This document shows positions 2,836-62,688 of a stretch of 64,000 nt of DNA, one piece after another. The DNA is taken from positions 1 to 64,000 of the forward strand of contig JANNBC010000021.1 of NCBI GenBank assembly GCA_031385045.1. Reading direction: 5' to 3'. Source of the stretch: a bacterium (GTDB lineage Bacteria > Bdellovibrionota_C > UBA2361 > CALJRW01). Every line of letters starts with the position of its first letter. Within the stretch, counting starts at the first letter, position 1. Below the pieces are notes generated by a model that was given only the letters and a program-made list of their open reading frames with translations, was not told the DNA's origin and did not search any database. A program made the translations under genes and the position numbers.

Positions 2836-2908
2836 CAGAAGTTTTAATATCAGCGATTATCTTAGAGTTTAAATTTTTATCTTGATAATAAAATCTAGCA
2901 TTCATTAC

Positions 2909-3481
2909 TTAAGGGCAGGCAGCACTTAACCATTGAGGTTTGGTATTATATTGTGAACCATCAGTCCAAGTGTAGCTATATTGAACATAGTAATTATGAT
3001 TTCTATCCGTAATACTGCAGTCGATGAGTTGAAATGCCAGACCATAAGTATGAGGGTGAGCTCCGCCTGAGCCAGTATTCATTTGCTCACTATAGTCTGT
3101 TAAGCCACCCCAGCCAGCAGGGGGATCAAGGATATCTCTGGAATAAATTTGAGCTATTTCATCTGGGCTTAATATGTTGAAATTAGATGTACCTCCAGCT
3201 CCACCAATCGTTGCTGAGACTTGTAGTCGACCATCGTTAATTGGACGACTTGGCCACCATTGAACTGTAAAGTTTGTCGCAACTGGCCCCATGCGATCAG
3301 CGGCCATGTCTCTGGCAACTTGGCTAGCAGTGACAAAGCTATTTAAAGCCATTACCATTTGTGCCTTTTTTGCCGAATCAGCAAACTGACGATATCCGGC
3401 AATCGAGATGGCTGATAAAATACCAATAACTGCTGTCGTTACTAGAAGTTCCACTAAAGTAAAAGCTTTTTGCTGGCTCAT
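2909..3481 (-). CDS. Type IV pilin-like protein (prepilin cleavage/methylation N-terminus)
   Basis: KA|FTLVELLV class III signal with E5 and hydrophobic helix. Confidence 0.85.
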   Translation of the reverse strand: MSQQKAFTLVELLVTTAVIGILSAISIAGYRQFADSAKKAQMVMALNSFVTASQVARDMAADRMGPVATNFTVQWWPSRPINDGRLQVSATIGGAGGTSNFNILSPDEIAQIYSRDILDPPAGWGGLTDYSEQMNTGSGGAHPHTYGLAFQLIDCSITDRNHNYYVQYSYTWTDGSQYNTKPQWLSAACP

Positions 3482-48137: not shown

Positions 48138-50351
48138 TTAATGCAAGAATCTTTTAATTCTTGTAAGCATTAATTTATAAGAAGTATCTTTGCTAATAAA
48201 ATCACTTGCGCCTAATTCGAATAACATGGCTTCGTTATCTTCAGTATCAATCGCCGTTAACATTACTACTGGTATTCTTTGAAGATCTAGATCTTTCTTG
48301 GCTGAAATTAAAAAATCTTTACCATTCATGATCGGCATTTCGTAGTCACAGAGAATAACATCAGGTTGAAAACTCTTAGCTTCTGCTAAGCCCTCTTTGC
48401 CATTAATGGCCTCTTTCACTTCAAATAAATTACTTTTTAACATGACACTTAACAAATACCGGGCATCGTCACTATCATCAATTACTAGAATTTTTGGTTT
48501 AGCGATCGACTGCGAAGGAATGCGAGTTTCCAAACGCCGCATTGTTGATTCACTACTTGCAATTGCCTCAGTGCGATTATCAGCAGATTGATCTAATTCT
48601 TTTTGACGGATAATATTTTGGGCTTCAATCCTAATTTTATTCACTTCCTCAACGGAAATTGATATGGTCTTTGGTCGTGCCCGCTCAGCTTCGGCACTTT
48701 GTTCAATAATATAAGGTAGTGCTTCCTCTAAAGAGGTTGTGCCATCAGTTAGTAAATCAGCGGCAGCTTCGTGAAGATCACGAAAGCCAGCTTCTTTTGC
48801 TGTGGAAATTACCTGCGTTAAGCTGGCACTATTAAAAATTAAACCAGCAATTTCACTAGTAATCCTAAGGAAACTATAAATACCAACTCGTCCCTTATAG
48901 CCACTACCATTACATTTATGACAACCTTTGCAGGTGTACATAATAGAGTTCTCGACATCAAAGCCAGAGAAATTCAAAGCATTTTGATACTTGATATATT
49001 CAATCTTAGGAAGTGGAACCTTACAGTCGTTGCACAGTCGTCTGACAAGACGTTGTGCTAATACTCCCGCTAAATTGGCAGCGATCATGGAACAGTCAAT
49101 TCCTAAGTTTAATAATCGAGTCACAGCAGATGGTGCAGAGTTAGTGTGTAAAGTTGAAAGAACTAAGTGACCAGTATCAGCTGCTTGTAGGGCGATCTTT
49201 GCTGTCTCCGCATCGCGAATCTCCCCAATCATAATAACATCAGGATCTTGTCGTAAGATCGATCGTAACGCGGCTACGAAATCCACGCCGATGTTATGAT
49301 TAATTTGAATTTGGTTAATACCCTGAATTGTTTGTTCGATTGGATCTTCTACTGTTTGAATATTTCCAGCAGTCTCTTGGCAGAACTTTAGGCAGGTATA
49401 TAAAGTTGTTGTTTTACCTGAGCCAGTTGGTCCAGTTACTAACATTAATTTACCAGTAGAAGATAATATATCTTTCATCTGATTTTCTAAAGCTGGATAT
49501 AGTCCTAGCGTAGAGAATTTTAATGAATCATAGTTGGACTTTAAAATCCTCATTACGATCTTTTCGCCATAAGGGGTTGGTAGAGTAGATACCCTCATGT
49601 CATATTTTTCTTTACCAATACCAATTCGTAATTTACCATCCTGGGGACGACGTCGTTCTGAAATATCTAAGCCAGCAAGGATTTTAATTCTACTGGCGAT
49701 GTTGTTTTTTAGTTCAGCATCAAACTCCATGAATTCTTCCATGGTTCCATCAATTCGAAGACGCACTTTCACAACTTCTTGTTTCGGTTCAATATGAATA
49801 TCACTAGCATCTCTAGTGACACCACCAGCCAGAATTTCATTGCAAATTCTAATCGCGGGAGCATCATTTTTATCCAGACCCTCTTCTTCTCCATCACGTT
49901 CCGCAACTACATTAAGGTGGGAGTTTTTTTTCTTTAAGATTTCTAGAATTTTAAGTTCATCAGCAAGAACTAGTTCTATATCTTTGGCATATTCAAATTT
50001 AAGCCAATTCTTTATTTCGTAATCTAATGGGTTGCAACAGGCAACAATTAAAGTTTGGCCATGGTCAATAATTGGCAAGCATTTTTTCTCAATAAGCTGA
50101 TCAAGTTCAACGCGGTGAATCAGACGATCAATCATTAATTGATTTTTAACCTCTTCCGAGTCTAAATCATAGAAGTCTATATGGAATTCTTTGGCTAAGG
50201 CTTCATAAGCTAAGTCCTTATCTAAAAATTTATTTTCATCTAAGTAGCGGATTAATCCACGCTCATCCTTTTCAATTTCCTCAAAGTCAGGGACAAAGGG
50301 AATCATTCGAAGCTTAAATAAGATTTTTGCGAGGTTAAATTTATTACTCAT
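48138..50351 (-). CDS. PilB/GspE-family ATPase with C-terminal response-regulator receiver domain
   Basis: ASDIHIEP, RPQDG, GPTGSGKTTT, LRQDPD, STLHTN, CxxC/CxxC; C-terminal LVIDD...LCDYEMP...MLT...FISK. Confidence 0.92.
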   Translation of the reverse strand: MSNKFNLAKILFKLRMIPFVPDFEEIEKDERGLIRYLDENKFLDKDLAYEALAKEFHIDFYDLDSEEVKNQLMIDRLIHRVELDQLIEKKCLPIIDHGQTLIVACCNPLDYEIKNWLKFEYAKDIELVLADELKILEILKKKNSHLNVVAERDGEEEGLDKNDAPAIRICNEILAGGVTRDASDIHIEPKQEVVKVRLRIDGTMEEFMEFDAELKNNIASRIKILAGLDISERRRPQDGKLRIGIGKEKYDMRVSTLPTPYGEKIVMRILKSNYDSLKFSTLGLYPALENQMKDILSSTGKLMLVTGPTGSGKTTTLYTCLKFCQETAGNIQTVEDPIEQTIQGINQIQINHNIGVDFVAALRSILRQDPDVIMIGEIRDAETAKIALQAADTGHLVLSTLHTNSAPSAVTRLLNLGIDCSMIAANLAGVLAQRLVRRLCNDCKVPLPKIEYIKYQNALNFSGFDVENSIMYTCKGCHKCNGSGYKGRVGIYSFLRITSEIAGLIFNSASLTQVISTAKEAGFRDLHEAAADLLTDGTTSLEEALPYIIEQSAEAERARPKTISISVEEVNKIRIEAQNIIRQKELDQSADNRTEAIASSESTMRRLETRIPSQSIAKPKILVIDDSDDARYLLSVMLKSNLFEVKEAINGKEGLAEAKSFQPDVILCDYEMPIMNGKDFLISAKKDLDLQRIPVVMLTAIDTEDNEAMLFELGASDFISKDTSYKLMLTRIKRFLH

Positions 50352-50359
50352 TATCTATA

Positions 50360-50387
50360 ATATCGGAGTGTTAATTTATTTACATTA
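50360..50387 (-). promoter_or_regulatory. Sigma-28/FliA-like promoter, probably giving a near-leaderless mRNA
   Basis: TAAT-N16-TCCGATAT, 8 nt before the ATG. Confidence 0.4.
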
Positions 50388-50688
50388 GTCATTTAAGCTA
50401 ATTTATTAAGTAAGATTAGAGAATGTTTGCAAAACCTTACGTTCTAGGGCTAATCGTATATTACTAGCAATCAATTAATCCAAAAAGATAATAAAACCAT
50501 CCGTTCTTAAGATATCCTTTAGAAAATAAGCGATTCATATTTTTAGGAACTTTTAATGCTTATCCTTCCGGTTAGAGTGGGAATCAGATAGTAGAAATTA
50601 TTCCTAATATAGACCATTGAAATATAAAGACTTTTGGAGATTATCTTGATGCTCAATTTGCAAAGTTAGGTTATGGGGGATTATAGAT

Positions 50689-50726
50689 AAAAAAAGGGGA
50701 CATTGGTTTTGACGCCAATGTCCCCT
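50689..50726 (-). terminator. Intrinsic terminator ending a non-coding minus-strand transcript
   Basis: AGGGGACAUUGG-N8-CCAAUGUCCCCU followed by a U-run (A7 at 50689-50695 on +). Confidence 0.85.
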
Positions 50727-51330
50727 AAATTCGAATTTCGATCAGTCTAAACTGCAAGAATAGTGGTTAGCTAAACTTGAGGGCAGAGTATAAATTATAT
50801 TATTAATTAGCTTCGAAGCGTTTTTAATGCGCTCTGACTGGTAGCTAAAAAATCAATTTATAATAAATTAAGTTAATCAGACTCAAGTTCGGAGTTACTT
50901 GTAAGTATTGATTCCTGACAATACCATGCTAGTCTTCGATATTCTTTTCTATTGCTCTAACAAAAGCAGTTTCCTAGCTTTTAGTTATTATTTACAGGGC
51001 ACTCAGTCGCACTGTAATCTATTAAACACTATGCAAGTTAAGTGTTTGTTCCTTCGGTAGTACTACCTTAGAGTATAGCGTCCTTGCAGACTAACTCTTG
51101 GAACTGTGCTGTGTTTTGTTTGATAAACCGACAAACAATTGTTAAAAATTTAATTTTAACTAGCACCACAAAATTAATTGTGTCTGAAAATTTTTTTCAG
51201 ATTTCGTTTTAGCCACTAAGTTCTCAGGCTTAGTAAAGCTCTAGTAGTTATTTTGAGAAATAACCACTAATTAACGATGGCAATTAATATCTTTATTAAT
51301 TTAATTCTTCTGACCCAGATCTCTATATGA
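50689..51330 (-). ncRNA. Candidate large structured non-coding RNA (~600-640 nt), family unassigned
   Basis: No ORF of 60 aa or more; more than 10 hairpins, multi-way junctions, complementary loops; G-U wobbles favour the minus strand; terminator at 3' end; possible TTAACT-N17-TATAAC promoter with -10 at 51341-51336. Confidence 0.6.
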
Positions 51331-51540
51331 ATCTAGTTATATTCCAATTAAAATGTTAAGTTAAGCAAAAAGTAAGAAGAAGATTTTTTTTATTTTTTAG
51401 ACTTGCTAGCTTTAAGTTTGTTAAATTTTCTCTTAGGTGGAAAGGCTAGCTAACTTCCTTAATTCCTCCAGCTTCCAATTCAATCTGCTTGAAGTAAGGA
51501 CATTAGGATATTTTAATGATTTTAAAACATTGTTTTGAAA

Positions 51541-51954
51541 ATGAGTGATATTTTTAGATTCCACCAATACCAAGAGACAACAGAGAACATTCAAGTCTCA
51601 GTGACGCCACAGTTTTTGCCTGAAGAATCTAGTATTATCAATAAGTTATATACATTTTCATATTTAATCAATATTGAGAATTTACGATCTGAAACAATTC
51701 AGCTAGTTAGCCGTCATTGGTTGATTTATGAGAATCAAACACTGACTGATGAGGTTAAAGGTGAGGGCGTTGTTGGTGAGCAACCAATTATTGAGCCACG
51801 AGGGGTTTATGAGTATCGTAGTTATGTTCAAATAGGTTCAGTTTACGGACAGATGCAAGGAAGTTATCAGTTTCTTAGACCCAATAAATCCATGATTGAA
51901 GCGAAAATTCCAATTTTTGATTTAGTATATTTAGATAAAAATTTTATTCATTAG
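51541..51954 (+). CDS. apaG: ApaG (Co2+/Mg2+ efflux-associated DUF525 protein)
   Basis: QLVSRHWLI, VKGEGVVGEQP, GQMQGSY. Confidence 0.93.
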   Translation: MSDIFRFHQYQETTENIQVSVTPQFLPEESSIINKLYTFSYLINIENLRSETIQLVSRHWLIYENQTLTDEVKGEGVVGEQPIIEPRGVYEYRSYVQIGSVYGQMQGSYQFLRPNKSMIEAKIPIFDLVYLDKNFIH

Positions 51955-51964
51955 TTTATTTTCA

Positions 51965-53080
51965 ATGCAAGTATTTGGCTGTAAAAATTTTGAGAACAAA
52001 GTTGGAATTTTAATTGCAAACTTGGGAACACCAGACGCGCCAACTAAAAAAGCATTAAGGCCCTACTTAAAAGAGTTTCTCTCCGATCCAAGAATTATTG
52101 AAAAGCCTCGTTGGTTATGGTGGATTATTTTAAATATAATTATTTTAAATGTTAGGCCAAAAAGATCAGCTAGACTTTATCAGAGGATCTGGACGAAAGA
52201 AGGCTCTCCGCTTCTAGTCTCCACAATTAAATTTACAGACAAATTAAGAAAAAAATTTCAAGACGATGGCAAGGACGTAGAAGTTGTCTTTGGAATGCGA
52301 TACGGAAGCCATAATATTGAAGAAGCCTTAAAACAACTTGTGGCGAAAGGGTGTCGTCGGATTGTTTTATTTAATATGTATCCACAATACTCCGCTACGA
52401 CCACGGCGTCTAATTGTGATGCCGTCTTTGATAGTCTAAAAAAATTTCGTTGGGTTCCGAGTCTTAAGGTAGTTGAGCCCTATTATAATCATCCTGAATA
52501 TTTAGAAGCGGTAACAACTGTTATTAATGAAACATATCAAAATCTTAATCCTCGTCCCGAGAAATTAGTTTTCTCTTTTCATGGTATCCCGATAGAATAT
52601 GTTCAGAAGGGTGATCCTTATTGTTGTCAATGTAATGTTAGCAGTAAGCTATTAGTAGAACGATTAGGTTTTGCGGAAGGTGAAATTATCCATACTTTCC
52701 AATCTCGTTTTGGACGTGACCCCTGGCTCCAGCCTTATACCGATTATACAATTGAAGATTTAGGAAAGCAGGGAGTTAAGCATATCGCAGTTGCCTGTCC
52801 CGGGTTTACAGCGGATTGCCTAGAGACCCTTGATGAAATTGGGAATGAGGGACTGGAATCTTTTCATGAACATGGTGGTGAGCGGATTGATCTGGTTCCC
52901 TGTTTAAACGATCATGACCGTTGGGTGGAAGCTGCTAAGAATATTATTCAAGAAGAACTAACTAACTGGGAAAAACAAGATAGCTTTGCTAATCTAAAAT
53001 CTTTTGACTGCTCCTGTGGGTTAAATAAATGTTCGGATCCCACTTGGCGTAAATGTGGGCGATGTTCATGCCAGAACTAA
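51965..53080 (+). CDS. hemH: Ferrochelatase with Cys-rich C-terminal tail
   Basis: NLGTPD, YPQYS, FSFHGIP, FQSRFG..WLQP, DCLETL. Confidence 0.96.
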   Translation: MQVFGCKNFENKVGILIANLGTPDAPTKKALRPYLKEFLSDPRIIEKPRWLWWIILNIIILNVRPKRSARLYQRIWTKEGSPLLVSTIKFTDKLRKKFQDDGKDVEVVFGMRYGSHNIEEALKQLVAKGCRRIVLFNMYPQYSATTTASNCDAVFDSLKKFRWVPSLKVVEPYYNHPEYLEAVTTVINETYQNLNPRPEKLVFSFHGIPIEYVQKGDPYCCQCNVSSKLLVERLGFAEGEIIHTFQSRFGRDPWLQPYTDYTIEDLGKQGVKHIAVACPGFTADCLETLDEIGNEGLESFHEHGGERIDLVPCLNDHDRWVEAAKNIIQEELTNWEKQDSFANLKSFDCSCGLNKCSDPTWRKCGRCSCQN

Positions 53081-53122
53081 AGTGCGAATTATTATTTCCT
53101 TTGATTTAAATGCTTCCTCAAA

Positions 53123-53150
53123 TCCTGGATATTTTAAAAAATATCCAGGA
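53123..53150. terminator. Hairpin between hemH and a convergent small ORF
   Basis: tcctggatatttt-aa-aaaatatccagga. Confidence 0.55.
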
Positions 53151-53230
53151 GGCGAAGTCATTGTCCTTAAATTCGATAATATAATTAGTTAGTCAAAACT
53201 ACTGCCAGTAAATCTTTCTTTTAATTATTT

Positions 53231-53431
53231 CTACATCGGCTCGGGCAGATCTTTGGGATCTTCAGAGATTTCCAAAGGTTCTTCGTCTGTATTTAAATGA
53301 GTAGGGGGCTCTTGCTCACTATTTCTTTTTATTTCACTCTCAGGTTCTTCCGTCGGTCGGACCTGATCTTTTTCTGAGATCATTTCCCCAGGAAGGATTT
53401 GCTTTTCCACAATCTTCGGTTTATCGCACAT
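53231..53431 (-). CDS. Small acidic Pro/Glu-rich hypothetical protein
   Basis: 66 aa ORF preceded by GGAGAG Shine-Dalgarno-like sequence. Confidence 0.5.
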   Translation of the reverse strand: MCDKPKIVEKQILPGEMISEKDQVRPTEEPESEIKRNSEQEPPTHLNTDEEPLEISEDPKDLPEPM

Positions 53432-53600
53432 TGATCTCTCCGTTTAGTATATAGTAAAACCAGAAAATATTTTCCGTAAAATGCTTACCTTCACTCTAAA
53501 GGAAAATGACAAGTGTAAGTTAGAAATTTTAAGCTGGGGTGATAAACCTTCGGTTTAACAGAGTTTTATAGGTTTTACTATATTTATCTCTGGGCTACCT

Positions 53601-53703
53601 CCTTCGCCTTTCAAGCTTCTGAGGTTAAACCCGCTGGTCTCAATATAGTAATGATCTTAAATTTATAATTTCCTATCGGAAATTCCTTTCTGTCATTACT
53701 ATA
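53601..53703 (+). repeat. Dispersed intergenic repeat, copy 2, ending in a tatagtaatga...tcattactata hairpin
   Basis: Similar to 48018-48100; 11-bp inverted repeat 53644-53654/53693-53703. Confidence 0.7.
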
Positions 53704-53741
53704 TCATACAGGTTATTCAGTTTGCTTTTTAATCAATAACT

Positions 53742-53909
53742 TTATACTGGAGGTCTGAGTTTCGGTATAATCAGAGAAGCAACAAACAAGATTAGGAAGA
53801 CAAAGAAAAGTATTTTTGCCATTCCTGCTGCAGTTCCTGCAATTCCCGTAAAGCCAAAAACTCCTGCTAGTATCGCAACAATCAAAAATGTTAGTGCCCA
53901 ATTCAGCAT
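53742..53909 (-). CDS. DUF1328 (UPF0391/YtjA-like) small membrane protein, 55 aa; absent from the ORF track
   Basis: Manual translation [55 protein letters not shown]. Confidence 0.92.
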
Positions 53910-54174
53910 CTTAACCCCTATAAATTTAAAATTATAAAAGTAATATAAGGGAGATAATCATTGTAAGTGTATGATATAAATCATATCAGAAAGAATAATT
54001 GCTTATAGTTCCTGAATTTCTTGTTAAATTAATTTATTTCATCTTATTTGCCCTAGTCTATTTAAAAAATTTATTTCTAAATTTCACTTATTGACTTCAA
54101 AGCCAACTACTTCGGAAATTCGTTCATTTGGATTTAAATTTTTACTTGCTTGCGCAGAATGAGCTTGCCTTTAA

Positions 54175-61373: not shown

Positions 61374-62688
61374 CGAGGAGCCTCATAATAAATGTTACCC
61401 GAGGGTATAAATTGTATAATACGAAGCCTCACAATTAAATGTTACCGAAGGAGGCTAACAATGGGACTCAGTATGAAAGGCAGAAGAGAGTACTTAGAAG
61501 AAGTGAAATTAAGGTATTTAAATGGCGATAGAGGGCTAAAATGCCAAATACTGAATGAAGCCTCGGCAGTTACCAAGATGCATCGCAAGTCTATAATCCG
61601 TTATTTTCATAGTAAGATTAATCAGGTGGTTAAGAAGCGAGTGTTAGGAAAACGAGGAAGAAAATGCATTTATGATTATCCTGAGTTTAAAGAAAAGTTA
61701 AAGGACATTTGGCTAGAAACTGAAAAGATGTGTTCTAGGAATTTGGCTGAGGCAATGTCAGAATGGCTACCCTCGTATGAGAAGATGTATGGCAAAATAG
61801 AGCTAAAAGTAAGGCATGATTTGTTACAAATCAGTCATGCCTCAATCGATCGAATAATTAACCCCTACAGAAGACAATTTGGAAGGGGCAAATGTGGAAC
61901 TAAGCCTGGGACATTAATAAAAAATACGATACCGATTAAGGGAGAAAATTGGGATCCTAAATTACCTGGATTTATGGAGGTGGATACGGTGGCACATTGT
62001 GGTGGTTCTCTACTCGGTGAATTTGTCTGGACGCTAACTCTTACCGATGTTCACACGCAGTGGACTGAGATTCGTCCAGTTTGGCACAAAGAAGCAAAAG
62101 AAACCTTAGCTATAATCAAAAGGATTGCGGAAACTCTACCATTTAAAATCCTAGCTCTAAATGCTGACAATGGTGCTGAGTTTATGAATCATCACTTTCT
62201 AAATTATTTTATGCACCGTGATAATCAAATCTATTTCTCTCGTTCTCGTCCTTACAAGAAAAATGATAATGCTCATGTGGAGCAAAAGAACTGGACTCAT
62301 GCTCGTTCATTACTGGGGTATGGACGATTAGATAACCGAAGTATTATGACAGCGCTAACAGAAATTCTAGCGAATTGGTCTTTGCTTAAAAATCATTTCT
62401 ACCCTTGCAAAAAACTAATCTCAAAAGCAAAAGTTGGCTCTAAGTTTGCCATGAGATATGAAATACCAAAGACTCCTTATCAACGGCTTATGGAGTCAAA
62501 TAAAATTAATCAAGCAAATAAAAATAAACTGAAGCAAATTCATGATTCGCTCGATCCATGTTTATTAAGAAGACAAATTCGAGCTAATTTAAACAAACTT
62601 TTACAGAACTCCTCGGTAACATCTAATTATGAGGCTTCGTATCCAAAAAGAACCTCTCTCCGGTAACATTTAATTGTGAGGCTCTACG
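61374..62688 (+). mobile_element. Complete 1315-bp insertion sequence (rve/DDE, ISNCY-like) with doubled terminal repeats and 5-bp target duplication GAACA
   Basis: GAACA at 61369-73 and 62689-93; repeats L1 61378-99, L2 61419-48, R2 62613-42, R1 62662-84. Confidence 0.9.
61461..62666 (+). CDS. Integrase-core (rve) DDE transposase
   Basis: EVDTVAHCG, DNGAEF, RPYKKNDNAHVEQKN, KTPYQR; AAGGAGG ribosome-binding site before ATG 61461. Confidence 0.92.
   Translation: MGLSMKGRREYLEEVKLRYLNGDRGLKCQILNEASAVTKMHRKSIIRYFHSKINQVVKKRVLGKRGRKCIYDYPEFKEKLKDIWLETEKMCSRNLAEAMSEWLPSYEKMYGKIELKVRHDLLQISHASIDRIINPYRRQFGRGKCGTKPGTLIKNTIPIKGENWDPKLPGFMEVDTVAHCGGSLLGEFVWTLTLTDVHTQWTEIRPVWHKEAKETLAIIKRIAETLPFKILALNADNGAEFMNHHFLNYFMHRDNQIYFSRSRPYKKNDNAHVEQKNWTHARSLLGYGRLDNRSIMTALTEILANWSLLKNHFYPCKKLISKAKVGSKFAMRYEIPKTPYQRLMESNKINQANKNKLKQIHDSLDPCLLRRQIRANLNKLLQNSSVTSNYEASYPKRTSLR

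What the first reader, a model, noticed from the sequence alone, without database searches (positions are those of the whole stretch)
50689..51330. Candidate undescribed large ornate ncRNA (~600-640 nt) upstream of the PilB-REC gene
Seen: a 1.2 kb ORF-free gap whose right half is tiled almost continuously with stems and ends, on the minus strand, in a GC-rich terminator with no protein gene to terminate. Hairpins lie at 51242-69, 51215-34, 51183-51201, 51141-60, 51116-38, 51070-98, 51024-47, 50993-51016, 50905-24 and 50884-50901. Short helices close multi-way junctions: 51162-66/51106-10, 51100-04/51048-52, 50931-35/50879-83. Plus-strand mismatches in the 51242-69 and 51211-40 stems become G-U pairs on the minus strand, agreeing with terminator polarity. 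Known: size and density resemble large bacterial RNAs such as ROOL, OLE and GOLLD; tmRNA and RNase P hallmarks are absent. Inference: an independently transcribed structured RNA, possibly a new class.
Basis: partly seen in the sequence, partly recalled or inferred. Interest (0 to 1): 0.88.

Follow-up and report, generated by a model that had tools for sequence, protein, structure and literature searches.

The report
New large folded RNA of Bdellovibrionota
The gene-free gap holds a stand-alone gene for a roughly 620-base, intricately folded noncoding RNA that is kept across one small family of uncultured Bdellovibrionota-type bacteria and matches no catalogued RNA family, so it looks like a new class of large bacterial RNA whose job is still unknown.

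Summary
Confirmed and extended. The minus strand of 50689 to about 51303-51323 encodes a large structured RNA with its own terminator. All listed helices are in the predicted fold. In a congener it is 91% identical, against 75-83% for flanking genes and 30% for the downstream spacer, with 11 compensatory changes in 211 model pairs (0 of 5000 permutations reach this). A ~950-nt homologue missed by BLAST sits at the same place, back to back with apaG, in the family's other genus. It has the same helix order and a covarying kissing-loop pseudoknot, but no pilB downstream, so the RNA is not a pilB leader. Metatranscriptome contigs from three studies cover the element and stop at 51295-51303 (weak: no DNA control, no strand). 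No Rfam family matches either copy; RNase P, tmRNA and SRP lie elsewhere in the genome. Found in 3 of 3 family genomes, 0 of 121 other genomes of the phylum, and no phage or plasmid searched. Best reading: a new class of chromosomal 'ornate' RNA that probably self-assembles through loop-loop pairing like ROOL, GOLLD and OLE; that function is inferred, not shown.

The parts
50689..51323 (-). Large structured noncoding RNA, about 615-635 nt. The 5' end lies between 51303 (where RNA contigs stop) and about 51323 (predicted start); the 3' end is the terminator U-tract.
   Evidence: 90.6% identity to the congener, compensatory changes, RNA-run contigs over 50725-51303
51330..51359 (-). Candidate sigma-70-type promoter: TTAACA (51359-51354), 18 nt, TAGATT (51335-51330)
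   Evidence: 9 of 12 match, but the scan finds no more sites than shuffles do. Both hexamers are unchanged in the congener, and G002 has TTGATT-17-TACAAA just upstream of its first helix. Inferred.
50689..50726 (-). Intrinsic terminator: 12-bp stem, 8-nt loop, U-tract
   Evidence: -21.2 kcal/mol; one compensatory pair change in the congener; conservation stops right after it
50781..51316 (-). Long-range closing helices: P0 (51316-51309 with 50787-50781), P1 (51307-51295 with 50877-50865), P2 (51291-51286 with 50943-50938), P3 (51284-51280 with 50955-50951)
   Evidence: P2 keeps 6 of 6 pairs in G002 with 2 double changes. P0 lies 5' of the RNA-contig ends, so it needs the longer 5' end.
51204..51277 (-). 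P4 three-way junction with two hairpins (51242-51269; 51211-51240)
   Evidence: closing helix kept in G002 with one double change
51106..51201 (-). Hairpins P5 and P6, and the P7 junction (51166-51162 with 51110-51106) holding P7a and P7b; the P7 interior is expanded in G002
   Evidence: double changes at 51201/51183, 51179/51170, 51162/51110, 51156/51145, 51137/51117 in RNA-run contigs
51048..51104 (-). Conserved core: P8 three-way junction with P8a and P8b; the most sequence-conserved part across genera
   Evidence: 56 of 57 cells paired (98.2%), 4 of 19 pairs with double changes
51032..51088 (-). Kissing-loop pseudoknot PK1: P8a loop UGCAAG (51088-51083) with P9 loop CUUGCA (51037-51032); GCAACG with CGUUGC in G002
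   Evidence: one G-C to C-G double change in G002. Whether it forms within or between molecules is unknown.
51056..51067 (-). P8b hairpin with a self-complementary loop (GUAC at 51063-51060; UCUAGA in G002): candidate site for symmetric dimer formation
   Evidence: self-duplex -19.4, -10.6 and -9.6 kcal/mol against hairpin -1.7, -1.2 and -0.9 for the isolated segments. Inference; no background control was run.
50914..51228 (-). Candidate second kissing loop PK2: CCUGA (51228-51224) with UCAGG (50918-50914)
   Evidence: present in G000 and G001 but invariant; no counterpart identified in G002
50879..51017 (-). Hairpins P10 and P11, and the P12 three-way junction (50935-50931 with 50883-50879)
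   Evidence: double changes in P10 and at 50935/50879; P11 has broken pairs in the pooled contig variants
50731..50862 (-). 3' domain: irregular rod P13 (50862-50789) and small hairpins P14-P16
   Evidence: 3 double changes in the congener; larger and branched in G002
51535..51954 (+). apaG (DUF525), transcribed divergently; the only neighbour shared by all three copies
48138..50351 (-). PilB/GspE-type ATPase with MshEN and receiver domains, 338 nt past the terminator; not part of the element
   Evidence: not on the G002 contig that carries the RNA

Best explanation
A single-copy chromosomal gene for a large noncoding RNA of an undescribed class. SHOWN by computation: conserved boundaries, own terminator, nested multi-way junctions, a conserved core junction with a covarying kissing loop, arms that expand from ~630 nt (G000, G001) to ~950 nt (G002). 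SUPPORTED WEAKLY: it is made as a discrete RNA in freshwater communities. INFERRED: it is transcribed from a sigma-70-type promoter back to back with apaG and acts in trans as a folded particle, not as a guide or leader. Most likely mechanism: like ROOL, GOLLD and OLE, copies join into a dimer or hollow cage through the kissing loop and the self-complementary P8b loop, and the particle serves as a scaffold or store for proteins or small molecules. Odds: real stand-alone structured RNA about 0.9; not in any described family about 0.85; homo-oligomeric scaffold mechanism about 0.4-0.5.
For: Identity to the congener 90.6% against 75.3%, 83.0% and 76.0% for pilB, apaG and hemH and 30.3% for the spacer. 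11 double changes, 6 single, 2 repaired, 5 broken, 3 gapped and 184 unchanged among 211 pairs; 0 of 5000 permutations reach 11. 9 double changes among the 40 contig variant rows shown, 4 of them not seen in the congener; 0 of 5000. Syntenic G002 copy with z -6.27 minus against -2.86 plus, the same order of 10 helices, and 51 of 51 pairs kept. RNA-run contigs of three studies stop at 51295-51303 without listed loose ends there. Conserved letters sit in short junctions and helices, with no long single-stranded guide-like stretch. Kissing loops and palindromic loops are the bridges in ROOL, GOLLD and OLE assemblies (PMC12286853 passages; PMC12990946 passages).
Against: Only three genomes, two of them close; no R-scape-grade test was possible. 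The model was derived from these same sequences, and the G002 registers were set by hand (P3, P9 and P12 loosely). On the unadjusted core alignment 11 of 500 shuffles match the covariation score. Contig variants are pooled over runs, only 40 of 183 rows were shown, and 6 pairs break. No DNA run was laid as control, and contigs give no strand or level. 12 of 52 other gaps fold as strongly. Nothing tested here shows oligomerisation: PK1 can form within one molecule, raiA is a comparable orphan whose abstract describes a compact core without mention of multimers, and the G002 palindrome is off-centre in its hairpin. The promoter match is at chance level.
Confidence: 0.5

Rival explanations
1. Monomeric RNA scaffold of a ribonucleoprotein with family-specific proteins (OLE- or raiA-like), possibly tied to stress or metal handling. 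The apaG neighbour is recalled as corD, linked to Mg/Co handling; that is recall, not a call result.
For: Chromosomal single copy in 3 of 3 family genomes with a fixed neighbour; compact pseudoknotted core with variable periphery as described for raiA (abstract).
Against: No partner gene is co-oriented with it; apaG is divergent, present in 75 of 91 order genomes, and 0 of 32 non-family apaG loci have a gap of 600 nt or more upstream. The literature search on apaG and noncoding RNA gave nothing relevant in the 12 listed of 858.
Confidence: 0.22
2. Ligand sponge or storage RNA, analogous to merRNA of Bdellovibrio bacteriovorus, using an aptamer fold not yet catalogued.
For: Precedent in a related phylum: a 445-nt, very abundant RNA without a downstream ORF, proposed to store c-di-GMP (PMC3627812 passages). 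The core junction has invariant unpaired purines. In G000 and G001 the next gene has a MshEN domain (its c-di-GMP binding is recalled).
Against: No riboswitch family matches either copy at E up to 10; the MshEN gene is not adjacent in G002.
Confidence: 0.1
3. A ribozyme, for example a domesticated ORF-less group II intron (HYER-like, 637 nt) or a new catalytic class.
For: Size and multi-junction architecture with kissing loops; HYER1 is 637 nt and dimerises (PMC12990946 passages).
Against: No group II domain V/VI match at this locus in three genomes, with the control ringing in 5 of 14; no conserved GUGYG and no credible domain V; single copy, own terminator, no exon context.
Confidence: 0.08
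4. A long 5' leader or attenuator controlling pilB-REC.
For: Same strand and upstream of pilB-REC in G000 and G001.
Against: The G002 copy is followed by tandem repeats and a tRNA, and its PilB-like genes are on other contigs. The spacer is not conserved (30%). The best competing duplex for the terminator's 5' arm is -10.3 against -21.2 kcal/mol.
Confidence: 0.04
5. A lineage-specific, much enlarged stand-in for 6S RNA.
For: No 6S match in G000, G001 or G002.
Against: 6S is also not found in the three non-family genomes tested, which lack this RNA; there is no long rod with a central bubble in the fold.
Confidence: 0.04
6. Not a functional RNA: conserved palindromic DNA (repeats, protein-binding sites).
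For: This genome has many strongly folding repeat-rich gaps.
Against: Single copy, strand-asymmetric folding, covariation in long-range and pseudoknot pairs, RNA-run contigs bounded at the element.
Confidence: 0.04

Closest known systems
ROOL RNA (Rfam RF03087)
   Same: Size (average 581 nt), several multistem junctions, pseudoknots, few invariant nucleotides, no known protein partner (PMC5737381 passages); kissing loops.
   Different: No covariance-model match. ROOL is often in prophages or near tRNAs; this RNA is chromosomal, back to back with apaG, with no homologue in the phage, plasmid or viral collections searched. A tRNA lies 1.3 kb downstream only in G002.
GOLLD RNA (Rfam RF02032)
   Same: Conserved core with a variable part and sizes above 800 nt; palindromic loops that switch between palindromes.
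   Different: No match at this locus. GOLLD's conserved part is the 3' region; here the conserved core is central. No phage link found.
OLE RNA (Rfam RF01071)
   Same: About 600 nt, ornate, dimerises through a palindromic loop.
   Different: No match; no oapA-like gene among the 17 neighbours scanned; different phylum (OLE's range recalled).
raiA motif RNA
   Same: Abundant orphan RNA with a compact pseudoknotted core and variable peripheral stems (abstract).
   Different: Much smaller (recalled; minimal variant 113 nt per the abstract); no match in cmscan.
merRNA and APsRNA6 of Bdellovibrio bacteriovorus
   Same: Large stand-alone RNAs (445 and 655 nt) in a Bdellovibrio-type organism.
   Different: merRNA carries a c-di-GMP riboswitch; none is detected here. 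Their sequences could not be fetched, so APsRNA6 was not compared.

Membership tests
ROOL | Match to RF03087 at or above the gathering score (99.1 bits) | tested here: not met
   No ROOL hit at E up to 10 in either copy; genome search 0 of 4, but its control also rang nowhere
ROOL | Several multistem junctions plus pseudoknots in about 580 nt | tested here: met
   Junctions at P4, P7, P8 and P12 plus outer junctions; PK1 covaries. General resemblance only; the ROOL helix map was not compared.
ROOL / GOLLD | Frequent location in prophages or tRNA arrays | tested here: not met
   Housekeeping neighbours and no tRNA in the window; no viral homologue in 4 pattern scans or among 91 loci screened with the model
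GOLLD | Match to RF02032 (conserved 3' domain; gathering 150 bits) | tested here: not met
   one search gives one 10-bit hit on another contig of G001
OLE | Match to RF01071 | tested here: not met
   0 of 3, control silent
ROOL / GOLLD / OLE | Forms RNA-only homo-oligomers | not testable with these tools
   Only candidate loops identified
Group II intron / HYER | Domain V catalytic hairpin and 5' GUGYG | tested here: not met
   (no hit at the locus; control rang in 5 of 14)
RNase P RNA, tmRNA, SRP RNA | Model match, or absence of the normal gene elsewhere | tested here: not met
   All three are found elsewhere in G000 over cut-off
6S RNA | RF00013 match; rod with central bubble | tested here: not met
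   6S was not found anywhere in the 6 order genomes tested, so the model may be blind in this lineage.
merRNA | Contains a c-di-GMP riboswitch | tested here: not met
   No riboswitch hit at E up to 10
APsRNA6 (B. bacteriovorus, 655 nt) | Sequence or structure homology | not tested

The most novel reading that the evidence does not exclude
A new class of chromosomal, 620-950-nt RNA that builds an RNA-only multimer of its own architecture (covarying kissing loop plus a palindrome-switching loop), or a new ribozyme, kept as a core gene of a bacterial family rather than as phage cargo. It would be an RNA machine unrelated to ROOL, GOLLD or OLE, with natural small and large versions ready for cryo-EM.
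Probability: 0.35. Interest if true: 0.9.

Novelty: new variant of a known kind. Interest (0 to 1): 0.74.

Why it matters
Bacterial RNAs of this size and complexity are rare, and the few known orphans (ROOL, GOLLD, OLE) turned out to form RNA-only dimers and cages of unknown use. PMC12286853 leaves open whether cage formation is common among large natural RNAs (passage). This RNA is an independent test case: unrelated sequence, chromosomal rather than phage-linked, and two natural sizes sharing one core, so in vitro transcription, mass photometry and cryo-EM can answer that question without culturing the host. Its narrow range (one family of uncultured bacteria) limits genetics and general impact.

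Tried and rejected
BLAST-type DNA search found only the congener among 61 relatives and 91 order genomes (four other genomes gave 25-40-nt hits at E above 0.003, treated as chance); it missed G002, which was found by synteny. Pattern searches of the order and phylum gave matches outside the family at about the rate of the reversed control. Of the loci inspected, all but one (L034) lay in ORFs of 100 aa or more, and L034 lacks the flanking helices; not every match was fetched. Core model R1 found 3 of 124 phylum genomes and only E above 1.4 in 40 representatives with laxer filters. Metagenome scans: 0 hits and 8 hits, all in ORFs. Viral scans: 0, 4, 37 and 42 hits, none scored by R1 at E up to 1. 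Phage and plasmid blastn gave only 31-39-nt chance pieces. One search had wrong registers for P2, P3 and PK1; one search corrected them and is the one cited for totals. A second CUUGCA at 50758-50753 could also pair with the P8a loop but has a local partner (P14) and was set aside. A small plus-strand hairpin region in the G002 gap folded weakly (z -1.75) and is absent from G000 and G001. No conserved small ORF was sought formally; the covariation pattern was taken to favour structure.

Full report
Setting. The window is G000:C53:1-64000. The record title of a congener locus (L003) says Bdellovibrionota. The finding lies in a 1.18-kb gap between a PilB/GspE-type ATPase with MshEN and receiver domains (48138-50351, minus) and apaG-hemH (from 51535, plus). 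The window has no Rfam match at gathering score and no tRNA or tmRNA.

Observation. Sliding 200-nt windows put the signal between about 50600 and 51400. Against this, folding is not rare in this genome's gaps: 12 of 52 scored gaps (56 eligible) lie further below their shuffles (that measure takes the better strand, which favours the comparison gaps). Most of the 12 are tRNA loci or repeats, whereas this element is single-copy.

Conservation. The congener G001 carries it at the same place. Identity is 90.6% over 51323-50695, against 75.3% (pilB), 83.0% (apaG), 76.0% (hemH), 75.8% (promoter side) and 30.3% (spacer after the terminator); the drop at the terminator is abrupt. On a 211-pair model, G001 shows 184 pairs unchanged, 11 changed on both sides, 6 on one side, 2 mismatches repaired, 5 broken and 3 gapped. 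Random placement of the same 55 substitutions gave a mean of 1.0 double changes, and 0 of 5000 reached 11. The model came from the G000 fold, with P1 and P10b set with G001 in view and P2, P3 and PK1 with G002 in view, so this test leans in its favour.

A distant homologue. BLAST missed the family's other genus, but upstream of its apaG (L016 = G002:C138) is a minus-strand region of about 950 nt (about 4460-3513) ending in a terminator. It folds at z -6.27 minus against -2.86 plus, shares the core sequence, and has 10 helices in the same order. In hand-set registers 51 of 51 pairs are kept, 20 with double changes; P3, P9 and P12 are loosely registered. On the unadjusted three-sequence core alignment, 98.2% of cells pair and 4 of 19 pairs change on both sides, one in each helix including the pseudoknot; 11 of 500 shuffles match this, and slid controls show no double change. 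G002 has no PilB gene on this contig; repeats and a tRNA follow instead. This removes the pilB-leader reading.

Anatomy (minus strand). P0 and P1 close the molecule; P2 and P3 enclose a 5' domain with the P4 three-way junction, P5, P6, the P7 junction, the core P8 junction (P8a, P8b), P9, P10 and P11. The P12 junction follows inside P1, then a 3' rod (P13), small hairpins and the terminator. The P8a loop (UGCAAG) pairs with the P9 loop (CUUGCA); in G002 these read GCAACG and CGUUGC. The P8b loop is self-complementary in all three (GUAC, GUAC, UCUAGA). A second kissing pair (CCUGA/UCAGG) is invariant in G000 and G001 and not identified in G002. G002 gains length mainly in P7, P11 and the 3' domain.

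Expression. Of 22 runs listed, 20 hold part of the element and 8 of those are RNA runs. Four RNA runs were laid on 49600-52400. In X7, X10 and X12 (three studies), contigs of relatives cover 50725-51303. Six of the 25 records listed (3 more not shown) end at 51295-51303, with no loose end listed there (2 loose-end rows not shown). The two near-identical contigs of X4 both fall inside the element. Among the 40 variant rows shown (143 not shown), 9 model pairs change on both sides, 5 on one side and 6 break; 0 of 5000 permutations reach 9, and 4 of the double changes are absent from G001. These are contigs: no strand, no level, and I laid no DNA run, so the shared stop is a weak hint. The contig ends lie about 20 nt inside the start predicted from the promoter-like site, so the 5' end is unsettled.

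Range. The core covariance model finds 3 of 124 phylum genomes, all three of the family, and nothing significant in 40 representatives with laxer filters. None of 32 non-family apaG loci has an upstream gap of 600 nt or more (30 loci and 2, out of 72 non-family genomes with the gene). No homologue turned up in metagenome, viral, phage or plasmid searches. A model from three sequences has limited reach, so this is 'not found', not 'absent'.

What it is not. Neither copy matches any of 4227 Rfam families near its cut-off (best 25.8 bits against 100). RNase P, tmRNA and SRP are elsewhere in G000. Group II hallmarks are missing. 6S was not found in any of 6 order genomes tested.

How it most likely works. 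Conservation is concentrated in short helices, junction purines and loop-loop pairs, with no long single-stranded guide and no fixed downstream gene. That fits an RNA whose folded shape is the functional unit. ROOL, GOLLD and OLE form RNA-only multimers through kissing and palindromic loops, and one ROOL kissing loop first read as intramolecular proved intermolecular (PMC12286853, passages). I therefore favour self-assembly into a dimer or cage acting as scaffold or store (about 0.4-0.5), over a monomeric protein scaffold (0.22), ligand sponge (0.1), ribozyme (0.08), leader, 6S stand-in or inert DNA (0.04 each). The function is inference by analogy; nothing here tests it.

Literature. Searches. 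No listing described a large structured RNA of this lineage; 'Bdellovibrionota' occurred 0 times in the listed papers. Seen as passages: PMC3627812, PMC12286853, PMC5737381, PMC12990946, and two 2026 preprints, 10.64898/2026.10.21.760802 and 10.64898/2026.09.15.751765, with 0 main-text occurrences of Bdellovibrio or apaG. Seen as abstract and outline: PMC12968392. No supplements were read; the preprints' cluster databases and most subscription papers are not visible and could hold this RNA as an unnamed entry. Earlier scan notes show no look-alike sequence but list other orphan large RNAs, so the general kind is not rare in this scan.

Verdict. A real, apparently undescribed class of large ornate bacterial RNA, restricted so far to one family, with a testable self-assembly hypothesis. 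Interest 0.74.

Noticed in passing
L016:2900-3420 (G002:C138): About three tandem copies of a ~168-nt unit downstream of the G002 RNA, with a strong inverted repeat at 2900-3100 (z -11.6 on the minus strand), followed by a tRNA at 2177-2249.
   Followed up: no
L016:2720-2885 (+): Hairpin region ending in a U-tract, possibly a small RNA; weak fold (z -1.75), not found in G000 or G001.
   Followed up: partly
G000:C26:147516-148145: Single-copy ORF-free stretch folding 81 kcal/mol below its shuffles, with no tRNA; a candidate for another structured element. G000:C4:15630-16259 is similar (-50, 2 BLAST hits).
   Followed up: no
G000 genome (e.g. C27:27409, C17:60417, C54:319812): A family of palindromic intergenic repeats with about 50 BLAST hits each in the genome.
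   Followed up: no
G000, G001, G002, G003, G010, G028: No 6S RNA found with RF00013 in any of the six order genomes tested: diverged or lost in this lineage.
   Followed up: partly
window 48138-50351: PilB/GspE-type ATPase fused to a C-terminal receiver domain. In G002 no single match spans both parts over the full length, so the fusion may be genus-specific.
   Followed up: partly
window 53081-54174: A second ORF-free gap of about 1.1 kb after hemH, not examined.
   Followed up: no
window 61392-62666: Integrase-core (rve) gene, probably an insertion sequence, 10 kb from the RNA.
   Followed up: no
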